From a virus: a DNA stretch of 64,000 nucleotides. The first letter of the stretch is position 1. Every line of letters starts with the position of its first letter. The position numbers were made by a program, and so were the translations under genes. Of this stretch, positions 3,658 through 42,166 are shown in pieces. Location: positions 1-64,000 of IMG/VR virus record IMGVR_UViG_3300045988_113959. The stretch is one strand, 5' to 3'. The notes beneath the pieces are model-generated. The model made no database searches and was not told where the DNA came from. It was given only the letters and a program-made list of their open reading frames with translations.

Positions 3658-3835
3658 AACGCTCTTTTGCTTGTTTATATATCATGTATTGCTCGCCTCT
3701 TAGCTTAATTATTTCCTGAGCTTCTTCTGTTGTACAAGGAACCCAATCTTTTTCAGGCTCCTTGTATGCGGCATATATTACCTCTACGGCATCAGTAAAC
3801 TTTAGATAATAGTTCTATACTTCTTTCTTCTGCAT
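3611..3835 (-). CDS. hypothetical 74-aa protein (1 in-frame TAG; absent from the ORF track)
   Basis: ATG at 3835-3833 lies 2 nt after the upstream TAA. It fills the otherwise empty 3658-3837 gap and ends at TGA 3613-3611, inside the ThyX 5' end. Translation is MQKKEV-Q-NYYLKFTDAVEVIYAAYKEPEKDW... Confidence 0.45.
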
Positions 3836-3837
3836 AG

Positions 3838-5573: not shown

Positions 5574-5776
5574 AGTGTATATTATATATTATATTTATAT
5601 TATAGAGATTATATATACATACAAAACTATACAGTTTAATTATATTATTAACCCCCTATAATCCCCCTAACGATTTTATAATTCCAAAAGTTGCAAATAA
5701 TGAATATTTTTACAGTTTTGCAACCGATATTGTGTACGTATACGTTACGGGGACAAATTCAAAAAAAATAAAAAGC
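5574..5776. promoter_or_regulatory. divergent intergenic region
   Basis: Lies between the first leftward and first rightward genes. Contains tandem CCCCCTA motifs (5652-5658, 5663-5669) and an 8-bp inverted repeat gttgcaaa/tttgcaac (5690-5697 / 5717-5724). Confidence 0.4.
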
Positions 5777-7195: not shown

Positions 7196-7267
7196 CGCGG
7201 CGTATATCAGAGGTAGATTATTAGGCTCATAACCTAAAGGACGGTGGTTCGATTCCACCCGCCGCAA
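7196..7267 (+). tRNA. tRNA with CAU anticodon (Met; initiator-like C1-A72 mismatch)
   Basis: Hand-folded cloverleaf: acceptor cgcggcg/cgccgca, D arm tatc-agaggta-gatt, anticodon arm ttagg-CTCATAA-cctaa, variable aggac, T arm ggtgg-ttcgatt-ccacc. Confidence 0.8.
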
Positions 7268-7516
7268 CAACAGATTTTCATAATTTTAAATACATAAAAG
7301 TTAATTTATACAATCAATGTATATTAGTATAAAATATAATAAAGATGGTGTAGCATCTATAAAACCTGCACATTTATACTCTACAGTGTATGGGCGCAGT
7401 CAGCATCAATATGCAAGACACGTACGATAATGCGCGTTATATAAATAACGTGGTGTAGTTTTAACTCACTAGAGTATAACATTGCCCTATGGTGTAATGG
7501 TAGCACAAGAGATTCT

Positions 7517-10207: not shown

Positions 10208-11431
10208 ATGGAATAGAAGAAATACTTAGACCTTGAAGGTCTTAAACATTATAATGGAAAATTAAAAGATGGTACTATTGTTGTTGGTAAAGCCGCAGCT
10301 GCAAATACAGTTCCATCAACTGGTATTCAATGGGGTACAGATGCAGTCCCATTGGCTAACATACCAAAAGCAGCTTTAGAGAGCTGTTATGTCGTTGCAA
10401 ATGACACTGCTAGATTTGCATTAACAACTACACAAGTACAAAACGGTGATACTGTAAAAGTATCAGATACAAATAAAATGTACTTTGTTAAAGACGATAC
10501 TAAATTAAATAATGAGAATGGTTACGAACCATATACATCTGGCACATCAGTAAATATTCAAAATGTTGACTGGGCTAATGTAACAAATAAGCCAGCTAAG
10601 TTTACTCCAGAAGACCATGGTTCAAATGCAGTTACATCATTAGCAGGTTATACTCCAATGTCTAGTGCTACTGGAGAATATAATAAAATAACTCCTGAAA
10701 AATCTCTGAATGAAGCATTGTTGATGCTTCAACAAAACACAGATAGGATGTTTAAGACTATAAACATTAAAGACTTAGATAATCCAATATCATCAACATC
10801 AGAAAGATTTAGACAACTTGCAAGTGATAACTATGTAATACAATATACGCTTGTTTGTGATGTTAGTGATAAGAAAATGCCATGTGGTGTATTGTATGAG
10901 TTTAGCGATGTTGGTAAAACTAATATTACACAAGTAGCAATAACATCATTACTGCCAAACAACACACAGTCGTCATTTTCAATGCATACGCCTCCAATGA
11001 TGTGGTCTAGAAGATTTAAAGTTAGAAATTATCCAGCAGAACAATTAAATAAATGGAGTATATGGGAGCCATGCGTTGGTGAAGATACCATGAATTTTAT
11101 CAAAAATAAAATAATGATAAAATTTAATGGTTTTGTAAACAATGCTAGCATACAATCATTATCTACATTTAGTACTGATGGTTCTGTAGTGTTTGATGAA
11201 GGTATAAATAAACTATTATATAAAGTTGGTTTTAATTATTATGATGTATGGTCAACATCATATTTATACGGAGAAAGTAATACTGGTCAAACCACTCCAT
11301 TCCAAGATGTACTTTATTGTGATATGAAGAATGGTGGGATATATATATGGGATGGAACTAATTTCAAGCCAATGTTTAATAAGACTGTAGCAATAACTAC
11401 AACTGAGATAGATAATGCAATAAACGGATAA
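10208..11431 (+). CDS. tail fibre protein (407 aa, 1 TAG)
   Basis: ATG 10208 (ME-Q-KKYLDLEGLKHYNGKLKDG...) is in frame with track ORF 10352..11431. Its position at the start of the virion module supports the call. TAA stop. Confidence 0.6.
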
Positions 11432-11435
11432 TATT

Positions 11436-13829
11436 ATGAATAAAGCAAAATTAGTTAATTCCGTACTTACTGGTGGCGGAATAGGAAGCCCTCAGCATCT
11501 CAATGTTGTAATAGGTAATGAAGATAAAGGCTTTCCAAGAGGACATGTATTAGATGCTAATGCTACACTAGCTTTAGCTGGTACTGGTAGAACTACTCCT
11601 AATGATAGTTTTTATGAAGATTTAAAAAAACGCATTAGTACAAGTTATGATTCATTTAGTGTGTCTGAAGTGTTTAATATAAAACCAAAACCTGGTTCTA
11701 ATTATACAAGTATTAATATTTCAAATTATAAAGATGATATTAATAAATTTTCTTACACTAATAGCTTTGGAGGGATTTAGTCTGGATTCTTAAATAGATA
11801 CACTGGTTACGATAGTGTTCTTTTAGGGTCTGGAATATTTACAGATTCAATAGCGGATACTATCGCAGGTAGTAACGGTATAGTTCTAAATGTTGAAAAA
11901 GTACCAAATAATAACAAGTTGTGTTTACGTATTAGTAAAAATAGCTTTGTTTTTAAAGCTTTAAAAGCAGGATTATTGATGATAACTGATTAGTTTGCAG
12001 TTGTTAGAGATAATGATGGTACTATAAAATATACTAAAGTTGGTGGTGGTTATCAAACTATTAGAAATACTGGAGATTATACAATATTAAATGATAACGT
12101 AATATAGTTTAATAATCCATATCTTAATAAATTAAAAGACTGTGATAATGTTTTCGCGTATTCAATATATACTAAAAACTCTAAAAATTCAATACTTTTT
12201 GGTAGGTATATAGCTAGTAATTCTGAAAACTCTATAGCTGTTGGAACTGGTTTAAGCGATAATCTTACACATAGTGGTAAAAGTTTGAACTGTGTATCAT
12301 TATTTGGTAGTTTAAACAGTGTTAAAAACGACGGAGAATTTGCATGTGGTTTTGGTAATTTTTCAAATCTTGTAGAAAATGGAAATATTAGATACTGTAC
12401 ATTATTTTCTATAGGGTCTTACATAAATATGCAAAATTCAAATGCGTTAGAAGTTCTTATAAAAAGAGAAGGTTAGACTGTTACTGATAATAATATGTAT
12501 GTATACGGCATCGGTAATTACGACGGCACTAACGCTACTTCTACTCAATCTAAATCATTACAACAAGTTATTTCTGATATAGAAACAGCAGTTTAGTTGA
12601 ATAGCAATGGTCCTTGGGATATAGATATAACATCAGAGTTTGTTAATGGTAATGTTACTATTAAGCCGTTATCAATGTGGTCTATAAGCCAAGGTGTAAA
12701 ACGTGTTTATTTTACAGCAAATTTAAAACAAGGCGATGTAATTACAATTCCTAATACTCTTAGAATGTACATTGGCTGGAAAAAAGCTGAGAATAGATTT
12801 GGTATGGCAGATTGGGCTACCGCTGGTAAGAAATATACAGTTACAGAAGATAGTTATTATGTAATATTAATAGCTACTGAAAATGATAATCCTGGAGTCC
12901 AAACTAATACACTACCATCTTATGGAAGGGTGATGTTAAGAACATCTAATCCAGAGTTTAAACCTACAGCTAAGACCGATGCTAAGAAAGACCATACTAA
13001 CGATGATAAGGTTATGCGTAGTATAGCTCATCAAGGTTTTCATAAAATGGAGAGACCTAATTCATTAGCTGCATTTAGAGCTGCTGCAAAAGAAGGTTGG
13101 AGGTATGTAGAAACTGATACATATATGACAAAAGATGGTAAGTTTATAGTAAGTCATGATGATAATGTTCCAGTTGGCTATACAAATGGTACAGTAACAC
13201 TTACCGATAAGACTTACAAATATGGAGACCATACATTAGCTGACATACTTGCATTTCACGGACCAAATGGAGAGAAAGTTGATACTCTCGAAGAGTTCTG
13301 TAAAACATGTAAAGAATGTGGTCTGCATCCATATATTGAAATAAAGCAAGGTATGATGTGGGAGGCTAATACAATTGATACTACAAATGGAAGATATAAT
13401 GGTAAACCATATGCTATAAAACTTCTTGATATTGTAAATAGATACGGTTTAAGAGGTAATGCTACATTTATTTCTTCAACTCCATATACATTAAGACTTA
13501 TGGCTCAGTAGGATTAGAGTTACAGATATGGTATTGTGTACTTTGGTTAGATTGGAGTAACAATCCAAGATTGGACTACAGTATTAAGTAAGATAGAAGA
13601 ATTTAATAATGACGCAAATGCATCTAAAGCTTATTTATTTATAGATGTAAATATTGATAATCTTAAAACTGCGGATGCTAACTTTGCAAATTGGTTAGTT
13701 TTAAGAAACTGTGCACTTGAAGTATGGACAGCTAAAACTAAAGAAGATGTTGGTAACTTAGACCCATACATAACTGGCGTTACATGTGATAATATACATG
13801 CAGGTGAAATATTAGCTAATGATATTTAA
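11436..13829 (+). CDS. tail fibre/spike with C-terminal glycerophosphodiester phosphodiesterase (GDPD) domain (797 aa, 8 TAG)
   Basis: Frame 0 is open from 11436 to TAA 13827-13829, joining track ORFs 11436, 12285 and 12597. GDPD pattern: IAHQG...PNSLAAFRAAAKEGWRYVETDTYMTKDGKFIVSHDD ... EVWTAKT. Confidence 0.75.
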
Positions 13830-13831
13830 TA

Positions 13832-14350
13832 ATGTTTGATATACAAGGTGGAAAAATAAAACTTAGCACACAAGATTTAGCTATACCTCCATTTAAACAA
13901 CATTATAATAGTGCGGAGGATAAATCTTAGGCGCTAAAGGAAATTGAATACATTGTATGGCTTTATAAATGGAATAGCCCGTATGAAGCGTACCCAGAGA
14001 AAGATAGACCATCTATAATTGGTAAAGATGTATTCAATGATGAAAAATATAAACCGACAGCAGAGATGAAGATATTAGCAAAAAGGTTCTAGGAGTTTCA
14101 ACAGACTCCTAGCACCAGATTGCTACAATCATCACAATCAGCTGCGGAAGGATTGATTGAAACTCTGAATTAGTATTCAGAAGGTAATATGGATATAGAT
14201 ACAGCCTTAAAGATAACACGAATCCTTAAAGATGTTAGTGGAGTTGTTAAATCTCTAGATGTAGCAATGAAGCAAGCTAAAGCTGAACAGCTTGAGTCTG
14301 GAAAGATTAAAGGTGGTGGTGTTATAGGCATGTATGAAATTGCTAAATAA
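13832..14350 (+). CDS. hypothetical 172-aa protein upstream of terL (possible small terminase; 3 TAG; absent from the ORF track)
   Basis: ATG lies 2 nt after the preceding TAA, and its TAA lies 2 nt before the terL ATG. The frame is open apart from TAGs at 13928, 14090 and 14170. Confidence 0.55.
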
Positions 14351-14352
14351 TT

Positions 14353-17300
14353 ATGGTTGACTTTAATAAGAATATACTCAATAGTGATAAATTTAGACAA
14401 GCTGCTATATTCTTTCAAGAACATGGATGTTACACATTAGCACCAAAAGGTACAACTGATTATGCTAAGTATTGGGACGAAGAAACTAACAGATGTTTAT
14501 ATGGGTATACAGCACCAGATGGTGATTCTATAAGTGGGTATAATTACTTCTACTTGAATTACAGTCCAATTATGAAGTTATAGGAAGTTGAGTATACAGA
14601 TAGATTTGGAGATAAGAGAACAAGACGTGAGCGTATATTTGGTTTCCCTAGATTCTGGGACTATGATTACTATTACTTCAATGCTGTTGATGAAGCTGAG
14701 AGTGCTGGTAAACACATGGTTAACCTAAAGTGTCGTCAAAGAGGATATTCATTTAAAGGTGCGTCAATGTTAGTTAGGAACTATGAGTTGATACCAGGTT
14801 CAAAGAACTTCGCTGTAGCTTCAGAACAGAAGTTCTTAATTGGAGATGGTATTCTTACTAAAGCATGGCAGATAATGGACTTTGTTGATAAACATACAGC
14901 ATGGTCTAAGCAGAGATTAACTAGCACTCGTATGGAAAGAGTGTCTGGTTTTAAGATAACTGATGAGTTCGGTAAACAAACAGAGCAGGGTTATCTTTCA
15001 AGCGTAACTGGAATAACTCTTAAGAACGACCCTGAAAGACTTCGTGGTACTCGTGGTAAGTTAGTATTATTTGAAGAAGGTGGTAAATTCCCAAACTTAG
15101 AAACAGCATGGCGAGTTGAACAACCAGCTGTAGAAACAGACGACGGTGTAGCATTCGGTTTAATGATAGCGTTTGGTACAGGAGGTACCGAAGGTGGTGC
15201 ATTTGATGGTCTTAAGAATTTATTCTATCACCCAGAAGCTTTTAACTGTTTATCATTTCCTAATATATGGGATGATGGTCAAGGCGATACAAAATGCGGA
15301 TTCTTTGTACCAGCTTGGTCTAATATGGAATCTACTGACGAAAATGGACAGTAGAGGTTTATGGATAAAGACGGTAATAGTCTTAAAGAGAAAGCTGTAG
15401 AAGAACTTATAGCTCAACGTAACAAGGTTAAAGACGGAGGAGCCTCACAAACATCTATAGATAGATTCGTATCAGAGCGTCCGTTAAAGCCACAAGAAGC
15501 TGTGTTAGAGCTTGGTAAAAATATCTTCCCTAGGTAGTTGTTAATGAACCAATTAACACGCATTAGAACTAATGAGAAGCTACGAAATATGAAACACATC
15601 GTTGATTTATTTTGGGATGGTAATGGTGGTGTTAGAGCTGAAGAAAAGAAATCTGGAGATATAACAACATATCATTTAAAGAAAGATGATAAACCACATG
15701 GGTCAATTGTAATATGGGAGTATCCTGTAAAAGACCCGCCGTATGGATTATACATAGGGGGATGTTTAACACCTGGAGAAAAGGTATGTACACAAAGAGG
15801 ATTGGTAAACGTAGAAGATGTTACGCTCGATGATAAGCTTATAAATAAAGATGGTTAGTTTGTTGATATACGTAACCTACAGCGTTACGATAAAGAAGAC
15901 GAAGACATATATACTATAAGAACAGCTAATTCGTATAGAACTACAACATTTACTAGAGAACACCCAATATTATGTTCGCCAACATTATATGGAAAATATG
16001 ATTTTATAAAAGCAAAAGATATTCAAACTGGGTATTATTGTAAATTCCCAAATGTATATTATAATACAAATGAAGAATGTAAAGATGCTCCAATGAACTC
16101 TGATTTGTTTTGGTGGTTTGTTGGACTATGGCTTGGAGACGGTTGGTGTGATAGTAAGAAGCATTCAGTATCTATCTCATTCGATGTAAAGCAAAAGTTT
16201 TATTTTGATAAATGTTATAATTTTATACAAAACGAATTAGGTATAGTTCCGTATTATAGAATAAGGAGAAGCACTATAGAGTTAAACTTTACATCCAAAA
16301 AGGTATAGCAATGGCTAAATGGTACATTTGGTAATAGTTGTTATAATAAATCAATACCAGATAGAATTAAAAGGATTAATGATAGATATAAGCTAAATAT
16401 AATAGCTGGCTATCTTGCTTCTGACGGATGTGTCTATAATAGAAATAATACATCAACTGTTGAATTTGTAAGTGTGAGTTTAAACCTGTTGGAAGATATT
16501 CAAGACTTATTATTCGCACTTAAAATAATAAGTGGAATATCAAAACTAAGAGATTGTAGATAGTCTACAATACGCGGAAGAGTTATAAATTAGAGAGAGG
16601 CGTATCATGCAAGAATAGCACAATCTGGCTCTATTCTTTTAAAACGTTTATTTGATAAGTATTGTATAGAAGATGCTGTTAAAGCTAATAAAATTATAGA
16701 TAGGTAGTTGTCAAACCATTCAAATAAACAAATAGTTTTTGATGATGAGTTTAAACATATAATATGTAAAATAAAACAGCTAACTGTTGGTAAATATACT
16801 GGAACTGTTTACAACTTTGAGTGTGATACTCATACATTCATGTGTAGGAATATAATGACTCACAACTGTGACCCGTATGACCACGATGAATCATTCACAA
16901 ACTCTTTAGGTTCAACGTTTATATACAAACGTGTTAAAGCTGGAGAGGCTTGGAACGATGTTATTGTGGCAGAATATTCTGGTAGACCAGACTCAGCTGA
17001 AGAGTATTATGAAAACGTTAGAAAGTTATTGATGTTCTATAACGCAAGACTACTATTTGAGAATGAGCGCAAAGGTATATATCCATACTTTACAAACAAA
17101 CACTGCGATTATCTTTTAGCAGATTAGCCTGATAAGGTTATATCCGAAGTATTTAAAGATTCAAAAGTACAAAGAAGAAAAGGATGTCATATGACTAAAT
17201 CTATACGAGCGTATGGAGAAGGTCTTATACTAGAATGGCTGATGGATGAATTTGAGCCAGGGCGTCCTAATTTAGAAAGAATATACAGCGAACCTTTATT

Positions 17301-17514
17301 AGAAGAACTAATAGAAAACGACGGTAAAAAGAACGTCGATAGAGTCATTGCTTTATGTATGGTAATGATGTATAGAGAAGAATTATATTAGGTAAAGGTG
17401 GCTGAAAGTAAAGAAAAAAACAAATAGGTTGAACTCTTTGAAATGCCATTGTTTAGCCAGTAGTGGTGGGACAGTGACGATAAACAAGACGATATACCTG
17501 TATTTACATTATAA
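14353..17514 (+). CDS. terL: terminase large subunit precursor containing an intein (1053 codons; 685 after splicing; 12 TAG)
   Basis: One frame joins track ORFs 14353, 14716, 15538, 16093, 16708 and 17191. It has an FPRFWDYDYYYF N-terminal region, a KCRQRGYSFKGAS Walker-A-like motif, an LVLFEEGG Walker-B-like motif and an IGG|CDPYD nuclease motif restored after intein removal. Ends in TAA TAA. Confidence 0.85.
15763..16866 (+). mobile_element. intein with LAGLIDADG homing endonuclease (368 aa)
   Basis: Begins CLTPGEKV (Cys1) and has block B TREHPIL. The two LAGLIDADG motifs are FVGLWLGDGWC and IIAGYLASDGCV. It ends VYNFECDTHTFMCRNIMTHN followed by +1 Cys (16867). Five in-frame TAGs lie inside. 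Confidence 0.85.
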
Positions 17515-22418: not shown

Positions 22419-23423
22419 ATGAATAATACTTTACTTAATGGTTTACAGTTGTACAGAGGAAAACGCTTCTCTGACCTTGTAGACGAAAATATGATTTCTA
22501 ATGCTTTGTTAACAAAGCCTCATGAAGTTGCAGGTATCTTATCTCTTGTATTTGGTACTAAAGATGATGGTGTATCAACTACTATCGATATGATTACTGG
22601 TGGTCTTGGTAAAACAATGACTATCGAAAATAGAGAATATGAGTGGGCTGTTCAAATCGACCAAGACCACGCTGTAAATATTCTCTACGCAAAATGGAAT
22701 GGTCAACTAATCACAGCTGGTACACAGGTTACCGCTGGTATTGGTAACTCTCCAATTTATATAGCTCTTGAAGAGAAGTACTTCGGTCCTGGTGCAATCT
22801 TGTCATTCGACAACTATAGATTCCAGGTTCGTGTTTCTGGTACACCTTATCAAGATGGTAGCGCTTGGGTTTATGAATGCTACGTTGCTGATGCAGGTTC
22901 TGGTGCATATATTCCTTCTGAATACTTGCTCCCAGGTCGTCAGGTAAGTCGTATAGGTTCTGCTTACGAAGAGTATTCAGACGAGGCGGATATCCTGAAC
23001 TATCAGACTCCATTTAAGATGCGTAATAACTTGATGACAATGCGTCTTTCTTACGATATTACAGGTGATGCTTACTCTACTGTATTGGCTATTGCTCTTA
23101 CAGACCCTGAAACGGGTAAGAAGTCTTACTTGTGGGCAGACTATCAGTACTGGTTGGCTCTTCGTGAATGGAAGAAGCGTGAAGAGTATCAATTACTCTT
23201 TGCTAAATCTAACCGCAATGCTGATGGTACATACTCAAATAAAGGTACAAATGGCAGACCTGTTGCTATCTCAGCAGGTTTGTTCGAGCAGATTAGCCCA
23301 GCTAATACTCGTTACTACACAACTCTAACATCAGAATTGCTTGAAGATTACTTGTTTGACCTTTGCTATAATATGCTTGGTACAAACGAACGTAAGTTCA
23401 TTGCATTAACTGGAGAGATGGGT
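22419..23423 (+). CDS. major capsid protein, exon 1 (335 codons)
   Basis: Biased codon usage (ggt/cgt/gct/tct), no TAG, and position after the scaffold-like gene. The reading frame is cut by TAA at 23424 right after ...LTGEMG. Confidence 0.7.
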
Positions 23424-24413
23424 TAAATATAGCTCCTTATAATAGTGATATTATAAAGCAAATTTACTGAATTGCTGGAAAATCTTAAAGAATTTATTAA
23501 CATAGATTAACAATATAAATTATGAACACATAGATGTTTAATAGACAATCAGCAGCTAAGACATTACACAAACCTTTAAGAGGATTTGAGTTTAGGTATA
23601 TAATATATATAGATGGTATAGTTTATGATAGATTTACAAAGAATACTGTAAAGAATATAGATGGTACTGTAACTATATTTGGGTCTAATAATAAACCATA
23701 TAAATATAATATTGGTAAACTTTTAGACAACACATTTAAAGATATTGATTTTTCATAGCATGTAGAACTAAACAATCACCCTGGTTATATAATAAATAAA
23801 AATGGTTCTTTATATAATACTGTTAGTAAAAGATTTGTTGGTACTACTATAAAACACGGTTATATAAGGTATAATGTAGATTGGAGTAGAAGAATGATGC
23901 ATGAAGTTCTTGCTGACCAATTTATACCAAATCCAAATAAATACAATTCTATAGACCATAAAGATTGCGATAAGCTAAATAATAGTTTAGATAACTTAGA
24001 ATGGTGTGATATAGAAGAGAATAAAAGAAGAGCATACGACAATGGACTAATGTACGTTGTAAAACAATCTGTTACATTTTATAATGAATGTGAAAGGTTT
24101 ACATTAATCGGTCTTGAAGATGCTGGAAAGATATTTGGAATAAAAAAATCTACACTGTGTACAATGATAAAAAGATATGGCAATAAAGATATATATATAC
24201 CAAGTGGCTCTATGAAGGGTTATAAAATAAAAACTCAAAAGTGTAAATGTAAAGTTCAACGACTATCCGAAATGGAGTAGGGTTCAAGCGAACTCGAAGT
24301 GGTAAATTACTCAAATGAGTAAAAGATATAGTCTAATCACATATGAAAGTATGTGCGGTGTTAATGGTCTAATACGCCGAGTTTAAAGTAGCGATTTAAA
24401 CTAAATATAAATG
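23424..24413 (+). mobile_element. group I intron (T4 td-like, IA2-type) in the capsid gene
   Basis: The exon ends GGGT|TAA..., as I recall for td, with gctc (23432-23435) able to pair with gggt as P1. The 3' part, ttcaagcgaactcgaag ... agatatagtct ... cacatat-gaaa-gtatgtg ... ataaatg|, parallels the td core as I remember it. Length is 990 nt, ending in G. Confidence 0.65.
23522..24322 (+). CDS. intron-encoded HNH homing endonuclease (3 in-frame TAG)
   Basis: NNHPGYIINKNGSLYN and IDHKDCDKLNNSLDNLEWCDIEEN are HNH_3-type motifs. Track ORFs 23534 and 23894 share one frame. TAA at 24320. Confidence 0.8.
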
Positions 24414-24902
24414 TTCAGAGAATTTGACCGTATCCTTAAAGATAAAGTTGCTAACATGCAGCTCATTGATACTAAGTTCATCACTGGTAATGGTCAAGAG
24501 TTAACACTCGGTGGTCAGTTCACAACTTACAAGATGACAAACGGTATCGAATTGACTCTTAAGAAGTGTGCGTTGTTTGACAACATGGAAATGTTCCGTC
24601 AACTACACCCACTGTCAGGCAAACCATTGATGTCTTACACATTCTTGTTCCTCGACCTCGGTATGCGTGATGGTCAGGCTAATATTGTTAAGGTTTGTCG
24701 TAAGGGTCGCGAATTTGTACAATGGTGTACAGGTGGTTCTGTAATCCCAAGTGGTTACGGTTCTTCAAAAGATACTCTACGTTCTAATAGCCGTGATGGT
24801 TATCAGGTTCACTTCTTAGGCGAAGAGGGTATCATGGTTAGAAACCCATTGGCTTGTGGTGTACTTTACTGCGATGCTGATGATTCAGAATATACAGCCT
24901 AA
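24414..24902 (+). CDS. major capsid protein, exon 2 (162 codons)
   Basis: Same codon bias as exon 1 and in phase with it once 990 nt are removed. TAA stop, followed by a strong hairpin. Confidence 0.7.
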   Translation, partial: FREFDRILKDKVANMQLIDTKFITGNGQELTLGGQFTTYKMTNGIELTLKKCALFDNMEMFRQLHPLSGKPLMSYTFLFLDLGMRDGQANIVKVCRKGREFVQWCTGGSVIPSGYGSSKDTLRSNSRDGYQVHFLGEEGIMVRNPLACGVLYCDADDSEYTA

Positions 24903-24968
24903 TTGAAATAACGAGTCTCGCCTCGACTCTTATATTCCAATCCTGACGGATTGAAATAACGAGTCTCG
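24902..24968 (+). repeat. 19-nt perfect direct repeat (attgaaataacgagtctcg) x2, 48 nt apart
   Basis: Copies at 24902-24920 and 24950-24968, read directly, immediately after the capsid gene stop. Confidence 0.7.
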
Positions 24969-24992: not shown

Positions 24993-25027
24993 AAAAGGGT
25001 TCATGGTTGTTATCACCAGACCCTTTT
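24993..25027 (+). terminator. hairpin terminator after the capsid gene
   Basis: aaaagggt ... tggt-tgttatc-acca ... accctttt forms a nested stem ending in a T-run. Confidence 0.5.
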
Positions 25028-26571: not shown

Positions 26572-27392
26572 CGATAGAATAGACATACCAATTAGGAATG
26601 GAATTTGAACGTAGGTTAATAGAAATAGACCCTTCGTTTGAGATTGAAAATAAAGTTGATACAGAGACTATTTATAAGTTTCTAAATGAATATTGTCAAC
26701 AATACGTTCAATAGTTAATGATATAGCTTATTCAGGTTAAAGATAGACCAGAAGCAATTCCAAGTATACAAGATAGACTTAGAACTCTTATTAAAACTGA
26801 GAAGTGTAGAGTATTCGATAATCCAATCCAAGAATATAAAGAAGAATATAAGAATGTTAAACACTTCTTACTACCAGCTGATTATTACATGTATATAAAC
26901 AGCTCTTCTATATGTTCTAAATCATATAAACATCCACAAGAAACTAGCGCTGTTTAGCCTGGTGTTGGAATTGTAAAACAAACACACATGTTATCTAATA
27001 AAATTTGTAGTGAGTATGATATTAATGAAGTTATTGATACATTAATAGACAGTGGCGCTATAATGAGAAGTCCAGTAGTTGTGCTAGAATCAATTGCAGA
27101 TAGTTCTGACTAGACTCATAATGCGTAGCTATTTCACGATAAGTATACTGAAGTTGATAGTGTGTATGTTACATATTACTCTTTACCTGGAGAATTTTCA
27201 ATACTAAAAAATCCAGAAGAGCCATGTGAATTGCCATATACAGCATTCTGGGATATAGTTAAAGGAGCTGTAGATTTGTATATTTATACATATAAATATG
27301 GTGTTACATTAGAGAGTCTGAAGCGTAAAGCTAAACAATAGATGTAGGCTCTTAAAGATGCCGCTAATAACAAAAAGGAGGATGAAGAATGA
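26568..27392 (+). CDS. virion-module protein (274 aa, 8 TAG; absent from the ORF track)
   Basis: ATGA-coupled at both ends (26568 and 27389). Frame 0 has no TAA or TGA for 825 nt. Confidence 0.6.
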
Positions 27393-32375: not shown

Positions 32376-33245
32376 ATGGCTGATTTAGATTCTTCTGAGG
32401 TAAGGTAGCGTACAAGTGATATTAAGGAGTGGATATTTGAAGCCATAGATAAGATTGGTGCACCTATGCAGTATATCAGTAGACAGTCTGGAGCCGATGG
32501 AGTTCCTGTATATAAATTACAGGATAATTAGATTCCATTGCCTTCAGACTTAGTGTATTTAGATGGGGTAGCCTATTCTACATCGGAAAATGGTCCGTGG
32601 ATTCCATGTAGTACTTAGACTTCTATATTTAAGAAGTAGAATACTACTCAACCTAAACCTATAAAGAATGTACACTTTGAAGATAAAAACTTAGCAAAGG
32701 AAGAATAGATTACAGAAGAGCAAAGAATGTAGCATAAAATGCCAACAGTTCAAGCTCAAATAAATAGACCAAATACTGGAGGTTTCTCTGACTTGTTATA
32801 TAATGACGACTTCTATGAAAAGCCAGAGTACTTTATAAAACCAGGTTGGATTGTAATGAATAAGAAGAATGGGTACATTAAACTTGCATATAAAGCAATA
32901 CCTACAGATGAGAGAGGATACCCTTTAATACCAGATTTAGAATCATACAAAGAAGCTATATACTGGTATGTTAATATGAAGTTGTCATTCCCTAAGTTTA
33001 TGAAAGGATAGCTTGGTGGGAAATTAAAGAGTGCAAACATTACTATATATAACTATATACATAATAGATGGAATTATTATAGAAATCAAGCTTATGCTGA
33101 AGCCATGATGCCAACTCCAGATGATATGTAGAATATAAAGAATGATTGGAATAAACTTATCCCAGATTGGGATGGAGATGATACATTCTTTAATTATATA
33201 GGAAAAGAACAATTAACTTATAATGATTACTACAATGGATTCTAA
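32376..33245 (+). CDS. tail/connector protein (289 aa, 8 TAG)
   Basis: ATG 32376 is in frame with track ORF 32739..33011. The frame is open to TAA 33243-33245. Confidence 0.6.
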
Positions 33246-36200
33246 TAAACAACAAAACATGCAAGTTAACTCGTTTGATGGTGGTATGAATACAGATGTA
33301 GCAGACCATTTAATTAAATCAAATTAGTACAGACTTGCTAAAAACTTAAGATTTATTTAGGGTAGAGATGGTAATACTGGAGAACTTAAAAGTTTAACAT
33401 TGCCAGACCATATATATGATGAAGCAAGTGGTCAACTTGGTACTATTGTAAGTTCTTGCCAGATAAGAGATTATGGTATTTTGTTTGTATCTAAATAGAA
33501 TCCAGAAGGGTAGGATTGTTTATATATATATAGGTTCGATATTCCAAAAGATAATAGTAAGCTTGTTAATTTCGATAGTAATGCAGCAAGTTTGATATTT
33601 GGACCGTGTACTGACTTCAACTCAAAACAAATTGGATTAGAAGCTATATTTAGACAATATAGTATTGTTGGTAGAGTTGAGAATAATGATAATATGAAAC
33701 TATACTTAGCTGATGGCGAACATTAGATAATGATTATTGATTTATTCCCAGACCCAAATAATATACCAACAAGTATTAAATAGATAGAATCTAATAATAA
33801 TTTCATAATGTATCCTCCTAAAGTTGTTGAAGTTACATACGGTAACTTAAAAGCGGGTATGAACCAATATAGTTATCAGTTGTATAGACGTTATAAACAG
33901 GCAACTCAAGTATCACCATTAACAAAGATAATCCCAATTGTAAATAAGAAAAGTGGTAATTTGTACGATGGTGTTTTACAAGGTAATAATACCAATATGG
34001 GAATAAAGCTCAGATTTAACGTTGATAATAATATATACGATACAATAAAGATATTTAGAGTGCATTATGATAAAATAGGAGAGCATCCAGAGATTGATAT
34101 TATATACGAAGGTGATTATGATGGTACGTTTGAATATATAGACTATGGAGGTTAGAGTTTAGGTAAGTTAACAGTCGAAGAGTATAATTCATCATCTGGT
34201 ATACATATAATACCTAGAGTTATAGAAGCTAAAGATGATTATTTATTTGCAGCTTAGATTAAAGAAAAGTCTGTTACAACTGATAAGTTTGATGATATAA
34301 ACACAATATCATTAAGATTCTCTGAACAAGGTTTTGCATTTGCAGCTAATTACTCTGATAGATAGAATAAGTTAGATGGTAAAACCATAAATGATTTAAA
34401 AGCGAGCAATTGGAAGTTGTTTGATGACACTACAAGGAAAACAGATTGTTTTAATATCATTAACGATATGAGTGACTTGTCTGTAAATACAGACGTTTAT
34501 ATGGAAGATATTAGAAAAAATGGAGGTTCTTCTGCATACACTTATTTATTTCAACCAAAGGATAATGGTATTATTTATTATGGTGGTGTTGGTAAGCATA
34601 TAGACTGGAGATTTGTTGTAACATAGATTTCTGGAGATGGTAATCCAGATGGAAACGAAAATACTAACTTTGATGATTCATCATCTAATATAGATGACGT
34701 TTATCTTGGACAGATAGACCCTAAGAAGATTAAGTTAAGTAATAGTACAAAAATACCTGTTAGAAATGTTAGTCCAAATAATAATATAGGTTTTAAAAAA
34801 TACTATATAAATTCTCGTGGAAATTTTGTTGATGCTGGTAAAATAAAAGATAGTGGATTATATACTGGTGCATCTTATAATGACCCAATAGTAGCATCAA
34901 ATCTAAAATCTCTAAGAAGAGGTGAGCTTTACAGATATGGTATTATATTTACAGATAGTCTTGGCAATAAGAGTAATGTAAAATGGATTGCAGATATCAG
35001 AGTACCTGGATTATACATAAATGGATTTAATACGTTTGAAGCTGGTGGTATAAAGACAGAGCTTGGTGTTAATGTTCTTGGTGTTGAGTTTAAATTACAT
35101 GATTTAGATAAATATGATATAGCTCAATATGAAATAGTTAGATGTAATAGAACTATAAATGATATATCAATAGTATCACAAGGAGTTGTATCTAGACCTG
35201 TTAAGAGATTCTCGTTTAAAAATGATAAGAATTATCCGTACACTCCAAACTTTATATTGTCTACAAATAAGTTTATAACATCAGTAGAACTTAATGCAAA
35301 TCCATTAAATGATATACGTGAGACTAATGGAAATAGACAGTTAGGTACAAATATATTTAATGACTAGTTATATCAATTCTTATCACCAGAGTTTTCATTT
35401 ACACCAACAACTGTAACGGATATAATAAAAGGTACAAATGTTAATATAAATACACTTAAATATCTATTCCCAAATTCGTCGTTTGAAAAAAGACAAGATG
35501 AATGGTTTGCTGAAAATCAAAAAAATACACTATTATAGGTAAATCATGATGATAACAATCCTAGAGTTATAGATTCTAATGGTTTTGAAAGAAATGCTAA
35601 AATATACGATAACTATTCTGGTTATAGTATATTTAAATTCGCATACGATTTAAGAATAAGCAAAACTGGTGGTGGTGGAGCACCTGATTACATGGATGAT
35701 GTTAATAAGGTTGTTGATAAATTAAAAACATCTAAACTTGTTTTTAAATATTATAATCAATCATCAGTTGTAACAATGCTTCCACATAGAAAAGGATTTG
35801 TTGATAACATAACATATAAACTTAATGATAAATTATATACATACGGTACTGTTATGTATACCTCTGATAACATATGTGAAATAAAAAACCTTAAATTTGT
35901 AAAAGGAGAGAAGTGGAATGATTTTGGAACATTAGATTCTAAAGGCAACCCATCTTTAAAATATATAGATTAGATAAATATTGTAGGAACTTATCAATTC
36001 TGCAATTGGGTTATGGGTGGTATATATGGACTTAGTGTGAGTGAGATGAATGCATGGTTTGAAAAACACGGCGATGTAGACTATGTGTACCAATCTTTAG
36101 TAGGTCCTGGTTCATCTGGATTATTAATATAGTTGAATAACAAATGGAAACATTCTGACTCATCTCAACTAAATTCAGAGATATATCAATTAACAGATAC

Positions 36201-37899
36201 TATTGGTTCTAAGGTTATACAAGCTGTAGTTTATAATGATGATGGTAGTATTATGCCTGGATTACGCCGATTAGGGTATAATAGTGAAACTATAGGTAAG
36301 CCAGTTAATGATTACGTTATAAACGCACCAAAGTTTGCTAATACATACTTTAGTTATGATGCTACGTATGGACCTGAGAATGAAAATAACATATATTCAT
36401 TTACAACACAAGGTACTTATTTATGCAATATAGTTAAAGAGTGTATTCCTTACGGAGGTTATGAAAAGAATAGTATAGAAAATAGTTTATACTATAGCTA
36501 TTCAGATGTTTATAAGTACAATAAAGGTGCTGAGAATGTAGCAGAAGTATTTAATGGAGATACTTATATATGTCCATTTGAATATGTATCATTACATAAG
36601 TTTGAGTTTAAAGGATTACACGGACCATTAACAACAACTATAGTTAATTATATACCAGTTGAGACTAGTATAAATCTAATGTATACATCTGGAACTCAAT
36701 TTATTAACAATGATTCTGGAGATAATATATCTTGGATTCAAGAAGAGTCTGGTAGAATATTAAATCATCCAGCTCAAGATAAACCTCAATTTGTATATAA
36801 TACAGCATATAGTTCAGACTACAAACTACAGATAAATACTATTAAGTCATCTTTATTAAACAAGAATGATGAGTATTTCGATTATAGATGTAGATATTCA
36901 AATAAGAAGGAAAATGGAGAACTACAAGATTCTTGGACAACGTTCTTAGCTGCAAACTATATAGACGTATCTCCAGATTACGGAAAGATAACAGAGCTTA
37001 AGACTTTTAAGAATAGTTTGGTATTCTTTCAAGAGAGAGCATTTGGATTACTGTCTGTAAATGAAAGAACAACGTTAACAGATAATAATAGTAATTAGCT
37101 ATTACTTGGTTCAGGAGGAGTTCTTGATAGATATGATTATATATCAACTACAAATGGAATGGAAGATGGTAACTTTTCAGACCTCGTTACTAACACAGCT
37201 TTATACTGGATAGACTACGATAATAAAGAATATTGCCAGTATTCTGGCGGTAATTCTTATAGTATAATATCTAGAATCAAAGGTGTTCAAAAAGCAACAG
37301 AGGAAGGTATGTACGACGTTAGACTAGAAGCACCAAAACCAAAGAAAATATTATACAATTCAAAGTATAATGAAGTTATGTTTTGGAATGGAGATAGTAG
37401 AGTTCTTGTTTATAATGATGAGACTCAATTGTTTCATTCTGTATATACAATATCTGCAAACGTTGATAGTATTAACTACTTTGATAGGAATATCATAGTT
37501 AATGGTAATGATAGTTTGGTAGAGTTTGATAAAAGTGGTAATATTAGACATAACGACAACACTAACACTATTAAAGAATTCTAGCTAAAGTATGTAATTA
37601 ATGAGTATTATCAATAGGTTAAAGTATTTGATAATATAATATTTAATGGTAGTCTAGAATTTAAAGATAACATAAAAGAAACATTCGCAACTCAAGGTTA
37701 GGTATCTAATGAATTAACTCCTGAATATATATCATAGAGATATTATGATTATAGAGCTGCAATTCCTAGAGCTTCTAATGCAGGCTTATATGGAAATAGA
37801 ATGAGAGGTAAGTCTATGGAATGTGATATTAAAAATAACATAGCTGATAATATTATTATACAATATATAACAACTAAATATAGAGCTTTATGGAGTTAA
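33223..37899 (+). CDS. large tail structural protein (1558 aa, about 19 TAG)
   Basis: Frame 1 joins track ORFs 33808, 34417, 35692, 36133 and 37159, plus a Met-free stretch of about 1 kb (34627-35691). The N-terminal NSFDGGMNTDVADHLIK...YRLAKNLR is typical of phage tail hub/propeller proteins. TAA at 37897. Confidence 0.7.
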
Positions 37900-40078: not shown

Positions 40079-42166
40079 ATGGTTTACTCGAGAGATTAGT
40101 GGGTCCAGCTCCCAGTTAGAGATTTATACGATTCTCAGATAATGCTGGCATCTATAAACGCTGCAAGAGATATGTATCAGCGAGGTGTAGATGAAATGAA
40201 GGAATTTAAAAGGGAGTATGGAGATTTCTATAGTCCTATACAGAAAGATATGGATTGGTATACAACCAATGTTACTTAGGGTATGAGAGATACCATAGAA
40301 GACTTATATGCTAGAGGAATCGACCCACTTAGGTCTGCCGAAGGTAGAGCCATTATATCAAGGAGAATTAACAATGCTCCTATTGGGGAAATAAATAAAT
40401 TAAAGATGGCTTCTAAAACAGCTCAAGAATATCTCAAAAATAGGGGTGTTCTTGAAGCTCAAGGTAGGTATAATAAAGACTATGAAGACTTTGTCAATGG
40501 TGGTAAGACTATTGAAGATTGGGATACTCTTAGAGATGGTATTTGGACAAGACAAGCTCCATCATAGTTTATGACATTAAAAGAAGCTACAGAGAACTGG
40601 TATAATAATAGAACACCACATTCACTTACACAAAAAGAAGTTGAAGGTTTTGGCGTTAAATACGATAAAAGATATAATTATACAGGATTTACAAAGGACG
40701 ATTTACTTGGCATTGCAGCTAAAAATACTCCAGGTTGGAACGGTTCTCAAATAGCTGACTACTATAGAAATGTAGCAAAGAACTAGTTATTATCAGAAGG
40801 TATTGAAAAGCCAACCAATTAGCAAATAGAATACAGATTGTAGCAGAATGTCGCTGCCGCTAATGACGAGTATAAGATTAAACCTATAGAACAGGTTAAT
40901 CAGTATGCAATGCTCGATAAGCAACAAGCATATCAAACACAAGCTCGTAGAGAAGGCTTTGCTCACGATAGGGAAATGGCAGCATTTAATGCAGCTAAAC
41001 AGAGAGAGATGGCATATCTACAATGGAGGTTATCAAATTCTACTCCAGATGGAAATGGTAATCCTGCACTTAAGAACCAACAACAGCAACCAATTCCTCT
41101 TTCATTTACAGAATAGCTTATAGAGTCTGCAAATAGAAAGAAGACTGATAATATAGCTGGTCCAAAGAACTTCCAAGCAAATACTAAGAAGATATCAGAT
41201 TATTGGTTAGGTAAGGCTTATAGTGTATTAAGTAAAGCCGACAGTAATGGAGATGGTAAACTATCTAAGGACGAACAAGCAAACTGGAAAGTTAGATATA
41301 GTCGTTTATCTCCATATCAAAAGAAACTTTACGATAATGCGATACATCATAGAAATTGGTGGAATAAAGTTTCAGCTGAAGGTTATGGTAACGCTGCCAA
41401 AAACGGACTTATAGATAAGTTTGGTAATGTAACAAGTAGATTTACTAACGCTATGGCTTATTCTGATAAGAATACTGGTAATAATGGTTATAGTGATAAT
41501 GAAAGAAATAGAATAAACTCTAAATACTATAACAATGTATTTACAGATATCAATGAAGAAGGTAGAAAACAAATAATAAATCTTCTTACAGGAGGAAATG
41601 AAGAAAATTATGTAATAGATGAGAAAAAATCTAAGTTTGGAAAGAAACATCCTGTATTAAACTTTTCAGAAAGTGGAGTTTGGTTTGGAAATTATAGAGC
41701 GCATAATGCGTCTACTGGAAGAGATTTAACAAATGGTAGTATAAGTAAAACATTCCAAAATTTCCTCAAGAGAAACAAGGTAAAAGGCTGGGTTGTTAGT
41801 AAAAATGGAATCGGTGTAACAACTGTTCCAAATAGAGGTAAGGGTCAATCCTTGGATATTTTAGCAAATGTTTCAGTACCATATAGTGTGCTTGAAAGGT
41901 ATGCAAATTCTATAGGAGTTGGCTCTTCTAATATTCCTCAATTGATAAGGAGTTTAGGTTTAAGAATGATGAATGTTAATGGTGATACTATAGATAAGAA
42001 AGAAGATAATACGTTTGTAGAAATACCAGTATCTAAGCAGATAGATAACAATGGCGGTCAAGGTTATGGACAAGTAGACACTTCTTATGATAAGAGTTTA
42101 TTTGGCGGAAAAGAAGCCGCAGCAAGAGAAATACAAAGACAATATAAATCTTCATAGACAAGATGA
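40079..42166 (+). CDS. virion (likely ejected/cargo) protein with EF-hand-like loop (695 aa, 8 TAG)
   Basis: Frame 2 joins track ORFs 40283, 40571, 40910 and 41453. It ends at a TGA that overlaps the next ATG (ATGA at 42163). Confidence 0.65.

What the first reader, a model, noticed from the sequence alone, without database searches (positions are those of the whole stretch)
23424..24413. T4 td-like group I intron with an HNH gene interrupts the major capsid gene
The capsid frame stops at TAA right after ...LTGEMG (exon end GGGT). It resumes in phase 990 nt later at FREFDRILK... with the same strong codon bias. The intervening sequence starts |TAAATATAGCTCC. There gctc (23432-23435) can pair with the exon gggt, including the U-G pair, to form P1. 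It ends ...AAATATAAATG|. Its 3' core (ttcaagcgaactcgaag, agatatagtct, a cacatat-GAAA-gtatgtg hairpin, ggtctaatacgcc) parallels the P6-P7-P8 region of the T4 td intron as I remember it. The HNH ORF inside has 3 in-frame TAGs.
Basis: partly seen in the sequence, partly recalled or inferred. Interest (0 to 1): 0.65.

Follow-up and report, generated by a model that had tools for sequence, protein, structure and literature searches.

The report
Mobile intron splitting phage capsid gene
The major capsid gene of this crAss-like gut phage is interrupted by a 990-base self-splicing (group I) intron that carries its own homing-endonuclease gene, a selfish insert already reported as typical for this phage group, so it is real but not new in kind.

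Summary
Positions 23424-24413 (990 nt) split a crAss-type major capsid gene exactly. Exon 1 covers Pfam Crass_capsid profile positions 2-333 and exon 2 covers 335-495. A 95%-identical allele without the intron (IMG/VR locus L160) matches the predicted ligated exons perfectly over 90 nt.

The insert is a T4 td-like (subgroup IA) group I ribozyme. All helices P1-P9.2 form, including P7.1 and P7.2. The 5' exon ends in U paired with G, and the intron ends in G. In a 25-intron alignment, 88.6% of cells pair, against 34-44% in slid controls. A covariance model built without the window hits 24245-24360 at 98.6 bits (E 8e-21). Rfam RF00028 scores only 33.8 bits (cut-off 50), but this reflects the ORF. 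An ORF-less relative scores 94.7, and T4 td itself gives no hit at E 0.01 or better.

The HNH gene (23522-24322) sits in the P6a loop. Its three in-frame TAGs are sense codons, because the whole late-gene block of the window reads TAG as sense, and a CAA here is TAG in relatives.

Group I introns in capsid genes of Delta-group crAss phages, and recoded intron ORFs, were described by Yutin et al. 2021. This is a new member of a known kind, at a third insertion site.

The parts
22419..23423 (+). Capsid exon 1 (335 codons, ends ...LTGEMG; last base U23423)
   Evidence: Pfam Crass_capsid profile 2-333, E 6e-143; phrog_11589 major head protein
23424..24413 (+). Group I intron, 990 nt. It starts with UAA in the exon frame and ends with G24413 (omega-G).
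   Evidence: Precise presence/absence against the intron-less allele L160 and Bohxovirus L001. G+C is 27.5% against 40-42% in the exons.
23420..23435 (+). P1: exon GGGU plus UA (23420-23425) paired with UAGCUC (23430-23435). The splice-site pair is U23423-G23432. The internal guide sequence is GCUC at 23432-23435.
   Evidence: Recovered in the MFE fold. In introns at other capsid sites the guide co-varies with its own exon: GUGGU/GCCAC, CGGU/GCCG, AUGGU/GCCAU.
23437..23456 (+). P2 hairpin UUAUAAUA-GUGA-UAUUAUAA
   Evidence: Compensatory changes in same-site relatives L129, L130 and L131.
23463..23468 (+). P3 5' strand (UUUACU). It pairs with 24301-24306 across the ORF.
   Evidence: P3 is 98% paired in 25 introns, and 5 of 6 pairs show changes on both sides. 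L129 and L131 carry C-G to U-A.
23472..23555 (+). P4 (23472-23478 / 23549-23555) enclosing P5 (23483-23485 / 23543-23545) and a P5 extension (23486-23542). The extension contains the HNH start codon.
   Evidence: The motif AATTGCTGG...CAATCAGCAGC is shared with more than 120 IMG/VR loci.
23556..23569 (+). P6 5' strand (C23556, U23557) and P6a 5' strand (23561-23569)
   Evidence: They pair with 24253-24254 and 24241-24250. P6 and P6a co-vary across introns.
23522..24322 (+). HNH homing-endonuclease ORF, 266 codons plus TAA. Sense TAGs lie at 23531-23533, 23756-23758 and 24278-24280. The HNH motif lies at about 23948-24028. The body (23570-24240) is the P6a loop, and both ends overlap the ribozyme core.
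   Evidence: HNH_3 28.3-28.7 bits; phrog_59 E 7e-27; weak match to I-HmuI 1U3E. The ORF is intact in 6 same-site introns only if TAG is sense. Substitutions favour third codon positions.
24241..24254 (+). P6a 3' strand (24241-24250, A24246 bulged) and P6 3' strand (24253-24254)
24261..24333 (+). P7 (GACUA 24261-24265 / UAGUC 24329-24333). It encloses P7.1 (24266-24268 / 24274-24276), P7.2 (24282-24285 / 24290-24293), the P3 3' strand (24301-24306), P8 (24307-24312 / 24317-24322) and J8/7 (24323-24328).
   Evidence: Custom model R1 hit 24245-24360, 98.6 bits, E 8e-21. RF00028 partial hit at 24200-24355. Pair counts.
24338..24355 (+). P9 hairpin CACAUAU-GAAA-GUAUGUG
   Evidence: compensatory changes in L129 and L130
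24356..24402 (+). P9.1 (24356-24361 / 24374-24379) and P9.2 (24380-24387 / 24395-24402)
   Evidence: MFE fold. Both stems keep pairing through double changes in L129-L131.
24414..24902 (+). Capsid exon 2 (162 codons plus TAA), starting FREFDR
   Evidence: Pfam Crass_capsid profile 335-495, E 6e-62. The joined protein is colinear with crAss001 gp32 (PDB 7QOF) across the junction.

Best explanation
Positions 23424-24413 are a mobile group I intron of the T4 td type (subgroup IA, with P7.1 and P7.2), inserted in the major capsid gene of a crAss-like phage (Suoliviridae/Oafivirinae-like, near Bohxovirus).

Inferred mechanism, by analogy with established group I chemistry:
- The capsid pre-mRNA folds so that the guide GCUC (23432-23435) pairs with the exon end GGGU.
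- An external guanosine bound in P7 attacks after U23423.
- The freed exon then attacks after G24413. This joins ...GAGAUGGGU to UUCAGAGAA and yields a single 497-aa capsid protein.
- Ribosomes on unspliced RNA stop at once on the UAA formed by the first three intron bases.

The P6a loop carries an I-HmuI-like HNH endonuclease gene (23522-24322). Its first and last codons overlap the ribozyme core. It is translated with TAG read as a sense codon (probably Gln), as in all late genes of this phage. The enzyme presumably nicks or cuts intron-less capsid alleles, such as the one in L160, during co-infection. Repair then copies the intron in (homing).

Shown here: the exact split, the ribozyme architecture with covariation, the presence/absence polymorphism, and coding constraint on the ORF. 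Inferred only: splicing itself, the identity of the residue inserted at TAG, and endonuclease activity and target.
For: 1. Exact split. Pfam profile 2-333 plus 335-495. The join is colinear with the solved single-chain crAss001 capsid 7QOF. The intron-less allele L160 (95.2% nt over 1494 nt) is identical to the ligated exons over 90 nt. Bohxovirus reads LTGEMG-M-REFDR without interruption.

2. Ribozyme.
- RF00028 matches the 3' core (E 1.3e-6).
- The ORF-less homologue in cr118_1 scores 94.7 bits against a cut-off of 50. ORF-bearing homologues score 27-41 bits, and T4 td gives no hit at E 0.01 or better.
- The 3' half aligns almost base for base with T4 td.
- In the 25-intron alignment, 88.6% of cells pair against 34-44% when partners are slid. 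38 of 55 pairs change on both sides. The covariation score is 0.549 against 0.17 shuffled, with 0 of 500 shuffles reaching it.
- A covariance model built from 24 other introns hits 24245-24360 at 98.6 bits, E 8e-21. The next best hit scores 17 bits.
- The MFE fold of the ORF-deleted intron recovers P1, P2, P4-P6a, P7.1, P7.2, P8, P9, P9.1 and P9.2 (z -3.16).
- All 7 curated introns have U before the 5' splice site and G as the last intron base, and each guide sequence matches its own exon.

3. Mobility. The same intron sits at the same site in 7 IMG/VR contigs, in capsid genes 80-99% identical. At least 93 contigs carry the uninterrupted site.

4. ORF and genetic code.
- With TAG as sense, the + strand gives ORFs of 801, 1055, 1560 and 5683 codons containing 8-33 TAGs each.
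- The 6 same-site HNH ORFs have 2-4 TAGs each and no internal TAA or TGA.
- ATG 23522 is conserved in all six, whereas ATG 23534 is AAG in L129 and L131. The TAG at codon 4 must therefore be read through.
- The window's CAA at 24236-24238 is TAG in L129 and L130.
- Substitutions favour third codon positions in every part of the ORF (33/27/81, 29/9/51 and 73/42/175).
Against: - No RNA or protein data exist; splicing was not observed.
- Rfam's curated threshold is not reached on the native sequence (33.8 bits against 50).
- P1 has only 4 exon-side pairs, and P10 with the 3' exon is at most 1 bp.
- The tested structure was derived from the window's own row. The alignment used cores in which the P5 extension and the P6a loop were replaced by GAAA, which favours the observed pairing.
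- No suppressor tRNA lies in the window, so Gln at TAG rests on the CAA/TAG exchange and on the literature.
- The TAG at 23756 aligns with GAT (Asp), not a Gln codon, in L129-L131.
Confidence: 0.93

Rival explanations
1. The ribozyme is functional, but the HNH gene is a decaying pseudogene. The TAGs act as stops, no full-length endonuclease is made, and the intron is no longer mobile.
For: Under the standard code the ORF breaks into 3-, 74- and 173-codon pieces. The TAG at 23756 corresponds to GAT, not a Gln codon, in L129-L131. No suppressor tRNA is in the window.
Against: TAG is a sense codon throughout the late genes of the window. There is no TAA, TGA or frameshift in 266 codons in any of 6 diverged copies. 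Third-position bias holds in every segment, including 23759-23893, which would be non-coding under the standard code. CAA and TAG exchange at 24236-24238.
Confidence: 0.05
2. The capsid gene is truly split by a free-standing HNH endonuclease cassette. No splicing occurs, and two polypeptides (335 aa and a 163-aa product starting at ATG 24411) assemble into the capsid.
For: An in-frame ATG (24411-24413) directly precedes exon 2. Public records annotate comparable loci as separate 'major head protein' ORFs. Split genes around free-standing endonucleases are known in T4-like phages (own knowledge).
Against: A complete group I core with covariation flanks the ORF. The boundaries obey the U...G rule. 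The terminal AUG is also present in relatives where it is out of frame with exon 2 (cr118_1). The solved crAss capsid is one chain across this point.
Confidence: 0.02
3. The insert is another kind of intervening element: an intein or a group II intron.
For: Both occur in crAss-like phages (PMC7886860).
Against: The exon frame hits TAA at once and meets further TGA and TAA stops, so there is no in-frame intein. No Hint domain was found. No group II family appears in the Rfam scans, even at E up to 10, and there is no reverse transcriptase.
Confidence: 0.003

Closest known systems
T4 td intron (group IA2) with I-TevI
   Same: It has the same helix set and order, including P7.1 and P7.2 between P7 and the 3' strand of P3. 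The J6/7-P7 and J8/7 sequences are near-identical (AACGACUAUCC..., GAGUAGGG, AGAUAUAGUCU). P9 carries a GNRA loop. The 5' junction GGGU|UAA puts a stop codon at the first intron bases. The endonuclease ORF sits in the P6a loop and runs into the 3' core.
   Different: - The endonuclease is HNH, not GIY-YIG.
- The host gene is the capsid gene, not thymidylate synthase.
- The P4 sequence differs (UUGCUG/CAGCAG against CGGGG/CCCGU).
- There is a long P5 extension that holds the start codon, so the ORF reads through P5', P4' and P6.
- The ORF uses TAG as a sense codon.
Group I introns in capsid genes of Delta-group (Suoliviridae) crAss-like phages (Yutin et al. 2021, PMC7886860; examples cr118_1, cr131_1, cr50_1, Dulem virus 42)
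   Same: Same ribozyme family (cr118_1 scores RF00028 94.7 bits). Same host gene. The HNH proteins are homologous and share the core-encoded N-terminus N(R/G)QSAA(K/E). Recoded stop codons inside intron ORFs are reported in the paper.
   Different: The insertion site differs: after capsid residue 335 here, against residue 123 (cr118_1, cr131_1, cr50_1, Dulem intron 1) and residue 281 (Dulem intron 2). The HNH here has an extra segment of about 63 aa near the N-terminus. The paper recognised introns by endonuclease domains, not by ribozyme structure.
I-HmuI (PDB 1U3E), the HNH homing endonuclease of a Bacillus phage SPO1 group I intron
   Same: An HNH endonuclease encoded in a phage group I intron. 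The match covers the N-terminal beta-strand motif plus the H-N-N catalytic motif (query 89-182).
   Different: The similarity is only marginal (E 0.025). Strand-specific nicking was not tested here.
Capsid-gene introns of cluster J mycobacteriophages (PMC3706429, known here from title and abstract start only)
   Same: A precedent for an intron in a phage capsid gene.
   Different: Unrelated phage group. The intron sequences were not compared here.

Membership tests
Group I intron (Rfam RF00028) | Score at or above the curated gathering threshold (50 bits) | tested here: not met
   No hit at gathering threshold. A focused search gave 33.8 bits, E 1.3e-6, on the 3' core only. Control: the ORF-less homologue L002 scores 94.7 bits, ORF-bearing homologues score 27-41 bits, and T4 td gives no hit at E 0.01 or better. 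The shortfall comes from the 671-nt ORF loop, not from a missing core.
Group I intron | Conserved core helices P3-P8 (with the P3/P7 pseudoknot) supported by covariation | tested here: met
   88.6% of cells pair against 34-44% in slid controls. 38 of 55 pairs change on both sides. P3 is 98% paired. P7 is 100% paired, with U-A exchanged for C-G in 4 sequences. Model R1 hit of 98.6 bits, E 8e-21.
Group I intron | P1 with a U-G pair at the 5' splice site, formed by an internal guide sequence | tested here: met
   U23423-G23432 within GGGU/GCUC. Guide sequences co-vary with the exon at other insertion sites.
Group I intron | Terminal guanosine (omega-G) at the 3' splice site | tested here: met
   G24413. 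The boundary is fixed by the intron-less allele L160. All 7 curated and 5 same-site introns end in G.
Group I intron | Self-splicing, with exon ligation in RNA | not testable with these tools
   Only in silico: ligation restores a 497-aa capsid protein colinear with Pfam PF23898 and PDB 7QOF.
Subgroup IA (td-like, IA2) | Extra hairpins P7.1 and P7.2 between P7 and the 3' strand of P3 | tested here: met
   UCC-GAAAU-GGA (24266-24276) and GUUC-AAGC-GAAC (24282-24293). Both align to the td equivalents. The definition of the subgroup comes from own knowledge (Michel and Westhof classification).
HNH homing endonuclease (Pfam HNH_3, I-HmuI-like) | HNH catalytic motif above the family threshold | tested here: met
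   HNH_3 28.7 and 28.3 bits against a cut-off of 24.8. phrog_59 E 7e-27.
HNH homing endonuclease | Intact ORF under selection | tested here: met
   Intact only if TAG is sense. Six diverged copies lack TAA and TGA. Third-position substitution bias.
HNH homing endonuclease | Cleaves or nicks the intron-less allele near the insertion site | not testable with these tools
   The candidate target is the L160 sequence ACTGGAGAGATGGGT^TTCAGAGAATTTGAC.
Intein | In-frame insertion with a Hint domain | tested here: not met
   TAA at the first intron codon and further TGA and TAA stops in the exon frame. No Hint domain.
Group II intron | Domain V/VI RNA and a reverse transcriptase/maturase | tested here: not met
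   No group II family in the Rfam scans at E up to 10. The ORF is HNH only.

The most novel reading that the evidence does not exclude
The phage's late code switch may gate the intron's selfish gene. A UAG sits at codon 4 of the HNH ORF and is conserved in all six same-site introns, although the flanking codons vary. Until the phage's suppressor tRNA is present, ribosomes starting at AUG 23522 would stop before entering the P5'-P4'-P6 core. That would both protect ribozyme folding and splicing of the essential capsid mRNA, and restrict endonuclease synthesis to the recoded late phase. This would be a genetic-code-based analogue of the translational control of I-TevI. The evidence does not exclude it and barely supports it. 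Homologous HNH ORFs at other capsid sites lack an early TAG, and the six copies are too close to each other to prove selection on that codon.
Probability: 0.12. Interest if true: 0.55.

Novelty: new member of a known kind. Interest (0 to 1): 0.3.

Why it matters
The value is mainly practical.

- Standard pipelines (code 11, no intron model) report this capsid gene as two 'major head protein' fragments plus broken HNH pieces, as public records of related phages do. The capsid protein is a marker gene for Crassvirales taxonomy, so split genes can be missed or mis-scored.
- The case also shows that Rfam's group I model under-scores ORF-bearing phage introns. Even T4 td is missed at E 0.01 or better.
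- Biologically, it adds a third insertion site in the crAss capsid gene.
- It gives a clean intron-plus / intron-minus allele pair (window against L160) for testing homing. It could also test whether intron endonucleases mediate competition between co-infecting gut phages, as proposed for PhiPA3 (PMC11620839, abstract only).
- It is also a homing-endonuclease gene that has adopted its host phage's reassigned TAG codon.

Tried and rejected
- The Rfam gathering-threshold scan of the whole window found only a tRNA. I did not take this as refutation once controls showed that ORF-bearing introns, T4 td included, fail the same test.
- I first assumed the in-frame stop in the Bohxovirus capsid gene was TAG and counted it as evidence of recoding. 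It is TAA, so I dropped it as evidence.
- I considered ATG 23534 as the HNH start. I rejected it because it is AAG in L129 and L131, while ATG 23522 is conserved in all copies.
- MAFFT on untrimmed cores misaligned the 5' half of td. I therefore replaced the P5 extension and P6a loop with GAAA before the pair counts. This is a manipulation and is disclosed as such.
- Motif searches for a second intron of this family in the window found none. The next best hit of the custom model (26697-26756, 17 bits, E 0.02) looks like chance and was not followed up.
- Intein and group II readings were rejected.
- The large protein searches, structure prediction and the metagenome and genome scans were not needed and were not run.

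Full report
**1. The observation**

On the + strand, an ORF from 22419 runs 335 codons (...KFIALTGEMG) into TAA at 23424-23426. An ORF in the same frame resumes 990 nt later. Pfam PF23898 (Crassvirus major capsid protein) matches the first piece to profile positions 2-333 (E 5.8e-143). It matches the piece starting at F (24414) to positions 335-495 (E 5.7e-62). PHROG 11589 (major head protein) behaves the same way. The joined 497-aa protein aligns without a gap across the junction to the single-chain capsid protein gp32 of crAss001 (PDB 7QOF, E 3e-39).

The closest GenBank relative is Bohxovirus sp. 'endotrachealis' (Suoliviridae, Oafivirinae). It is 86% identical in nucleotides and 94% in protein. 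Its gene is uninterrupted and reads LTGEMG-M-REFDR.

The decisive comparison is with IMG/VR contig UViG_3300045988_009296 (L160). It carries a capsid gene 95.2% identical over all 1494 nt and lacking the insert. Its sequence is 100% identical to the window's ligated exons for 45 nt on each side of the junction. The insert is therefore exactly 23424-24413, apart from the trivial ambiguity of one T shared by both ends.

**2. What the insert is**

Rfam at its curated thresholds finds nothing in the window but a tRNA. A focused search gives RF00028 at 24200-24355 with 33.8 bits (cut-off 50, E 1.3e-6). The hit covers J6/7-P7, the 3' strand of P3, P8, J8/7 (AAGAUAUAGUC) and a GAAA hairpin.

I ran the same search on relatives as a control.

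| Intron | RF00028 result |
|---|---|
| ORF-less intron in the cr118_1 capsid gene (L002 2308-2605) | 94.7 bits, E 1e-23 |
| ORF-bearing introns of cr50_1, Dulem virus 42 and cr131_1 | 27-41 bits |
| T4 td intron (bona fide) | no hit at E 0.01 or better |

The sub-threshold score is therefore a consequence of the ORF splitting the core.

The T4 td intron was fetched. Its 3' half aligns almost base for base with the window. T4 reads AACGACUAUCCCUUUGGGGAGUAGGGUCAAGUGACUCGAAACGAUAG...GGAGAUAUAGUCUGCUCUGCAUGGUGACAUGCAG. The window reads AACGACUAUCCGAAAUGGAGUAGGGUUCAAGCGAACUCGAAGUGGUAAAU...AAAGAUAUAGUCUAAUCACAUAUGAAAGUAUGUG.

The helices in window coordinates are:

| Helix | Coordinates |
|---|---|
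| P1 | 23420-23425 / 23430-23435, with U23423-G23432 |
| P2 | 23437-23444 / 23449-23456 |
| P3 | 23463-23468 / 24301-24306 |
| P4 | 23472-23478 / 23549-23555 |
| P5 | 23483-23485 / 23543-23545, plus an extension |
| P6 | 23556-23557 / 24253-24254 |
| P6a | 23561-23569 / 24241-24250; its 671-nt loop holds the ORF |
| P7 | 24261-24265 / 24329-24333 |
| P7.1 | 24266-24276 |
| P7.2 | 24282-24293 |
| P8 | 24307-24322 |
| P9 | 24338-24355 |
| P9.1 | 24356-24379 |
| P9.2 | 24380-24402 |
| omega-G | 24413 |

An MFE fold of the ORF-deleted intron recovers every helix that is not part of the pseudoknot (z = -3.16).

**3. Covariation**

A scan of IMG/VR for the P4/P4' motif returned more than 120 loci. 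About 60 of them are ORF-less introns. I aligned 25 cores:
- the window;
- T4 td;
- five crAss capsid-gene introns at other sites;
- 18 ORF-less viral introns.

In these cores the variable P5 extension and P6a loop were replaced by GAAA, which is a disclosed manipulation. On the structure read from the window row, 88.6% of 1344 cells form standard pairs. The figure is 34-44% when partners are slid by 1-3 columns and 67.8% in shuffles. Changes on both sides occur in 38 of 55 pairs. The covariation score is 0.549 against 0.17, and none of 500 shuffles reaches it on any measure. The long-range helix P3, which spans the ORF in the window, is 98% paired, with five of six pairs compensatory.

A covariance model of the 3' half (P7, P7.1, P7.2, P8, P9) was built from 24 introns. 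The window and its same-site relatives were excluded. The model hits the window once, at 24245-24360, full length, with 98.6 bits and E 8e-21. The next hit scores 17 bits.

The guide sequence co-varies with the exon at each insertion site:

| Intron | Exon end / guide sequence |
|---|---|
| window | GGGU / GCUC |
| cr118_1 | GUGGU / GCCAC |
| cr131_1 and Dulem intron 1 | CGGU / GCCG |
| cr50_1 | AUGGU / GCCAU |

**4. Same-site relatives and mobility**

Seven IMG/VR contigs carry a homologous HNH (78-95% aa identity). In each, the gene lies in an intron after capsid residue 335, and the capsid genes are 80-99% identical to the window's. Five full introns are 78-96% identical to the window's. 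Their ribozyme parts diverge less than the ORF interior (0.9-16% against 6-25%). Compensatory changes appear in P2, P3, P8, P9, P9.1 and P9.2.

At least 93 other IMG/VR contigs have the conserved site uninterrupted. In the phage collection, four other crAss genomes have capsid-gene introns at residue 123, and one of them has a second intron at residue 281. The intron is therefore sporadic among close relatives and sits in a conserved stretch. This is the usual signature of a homing intron.

**5. The HNH ORF and the TAGs**

Under the standard code the late-gene block of the window is chopped at TAG into abutting ORFs. With TAG read as sense, the + strand yields ORFs of 801, 1055, 838, 1560 and 5683 codons containing 6-33 TAGs each. 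This is the stop-codon reassignment known for crAss-like phages (PMC7886860).

Read this way, the intron ORF runs from ATG 23522 to TAA 24320-24322. It has 266 codons, with TAGs at 23531, 23756 and 24278. It carries an HNH_3 domain above threshold and matches phrog_59. It weakly resembles I-HmuI.

Several observations across the six same-site copies support read-through:
- There is no internal TAA or TGA.
- ATG 23522 is conserved, while ATG 23534 is AAG in two copies, so TAG at codon 4 must be read through.
- The window's CAA (Gln) at 24236-24238 is TAG in L129 and L130.
- Substitutions are concentrated at third codon positions in every segment, including 23759-23893, which would be untranslated under the standard code.

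One caveat remains. The TAG at 23756 aligns with GAT in three relatives, so the TAG-to-Gln equivalence is shown at only one site. No suppressor tRNA lies within the window.

The ORF starts inside the P5 extension, and its first residues, N-R-Q-S-A-A-K, are encoded by P5'-J5/4-P4'-P6. The HNH ORFs of cr131_1, cr50_1 and both Dulem introns do the same. At the 3' end the ORF reads through P6a', P6', P7, P7.1, P7.2 and the 3' strand of P3, and ends in P8, where its stop codon UAA (24320-24322) falls.

**6. Mechanism**

The mechanism is inferred from established group I chemistry, not observed here. Guanosine attacks after U23423, and exon ligation follows after G24413. The UAA formed by intron bases 1-3 stops ribosomes on unspliced RNA, as in td. 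The HNH enzyme targets intron-less alleles such as L160 during co-infection. I put this at about 0.93.

The rivals are weaker:
- a live ribozyme with a dead HNH gene (about 0.05);
- a truly split capsid gene without splicing (about 0.02);
- an intein or a group II intron (excluded).

**7. Comparison with what is known, and novelty**

Yutin et al. [quoted passage not shown] They also note that intron ORFs can contain reassigned stop codons. The window belongs to that group (Suoliviridae). The finding is therefore a new member of a known kind.

What is added here:
- the ribozyme anatomy (td-like, subgroup IA);
- a third capsid-gene insertion site (residue 335);
- an exact pair of intron-plus and intron-minus alleles;
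- direct sequence evidence that the endonuclease gene uses the phage's reassigned codon.

Interest is modest (0.3).

The most novel reading not excluded is that the conserved UAG at codon 4 makes endonuclease translation, and ribosome entry into the ribozyme core, depend on the late suppressor tRNA. I give this about 0.12.

Noticed in passing
window 9176-64000, + strand (e.g. 11424-13829, 14347-17514, 33217-37899, 42148-59199): TAG is used as a sense codon throughout the late-gene block. With TAG read through, ORFs of 801, 1055, 1560 and 5683 codons appear, with 8, 12, 19 and 33 TAGs. Genes before about 9 kb and the minus-strand genes have none. The only tRNA in the window is tRNA-Met (7196-7268), so the suppressor tRNA must lie elsewhere in the genome.
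   Followed up: partly
window 22419-23423 + 24414-24902: The capsid gene itself has no TAG among 497 codons (8 CAA, 11 CAG), although neighbouring late genes carry several. A very highly expressed gene may avoid the reassigned codon.
   Followed up: no
window 23540-23560 and homologous positions in L003, L005, L006: The N-terminal peptide N(R/G)QSAA(K/E) of the HNH proteins is encoded by the conserved ribozyme core P5'-J5/4-P4'-P6. The start codon lies in the P5 extension in every ORF-bearing relative. ORF-less relatives keep the same RNA sequence. The ORF tail likewise reads through P7 into P8, where its stop codon UAA (24320-24322) falls.
   Followed up: partly
window 23585-23780: The window's HNH protein has about 63 extra residues near the N-terminus compared with HNHs of introns at other capsid sites. 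The segment looks like a second copy of the G-(W/F)-E...Y...G-x-(V/I)-(Y/F/W) beta-strand motif. The TAG at 23756 lies inside it.
   Followed up: no
window 24902-24920 and 24950-24968; 24993-25027: Just after the capsid stop codon there are two 19-nt direct repeats (ATTGAAATAACGAGTCTCG) 48 nt apart. A G+C-rich hairpin with a T run follows (AAAAGGGT...ACCCTTTT), probably the capsid terminator.
   Followed up: no
L001 (PV686213.1) about 1936-1941: The Bohxovirus capsid gene has an in-frame TAA (TAT TAA GAT) where the window has CAA. The record annotates the gene as fragments. This could be a sequencing error, a defective variant or something else. It is not the TAG reassignment.
   Followed up: partly
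L003 (Dulem virus 42, PP511876.1) 3461-4336 and 4811-5683; L002, L005, L006: The crAss capsid gene has at least three independent group I intron sites (after residues 123, 281 and 335). Dulem virus 42 carries two introns at once. Public records annotate them as separate capsid fragments plus endonucleases.
   Followed up: yes
These include jumbo-phage-sized contigs of 200-430 kb and one labelled as a giant-virus MAG. About 60 are compact ORF-less introns.
   Followed up: partly
window 26697-26756: This is the second-best hit of the custom 3'-core model (17.3 bits, E 0.02, most of the model deleted). It is probably chance.
   Followed up: no
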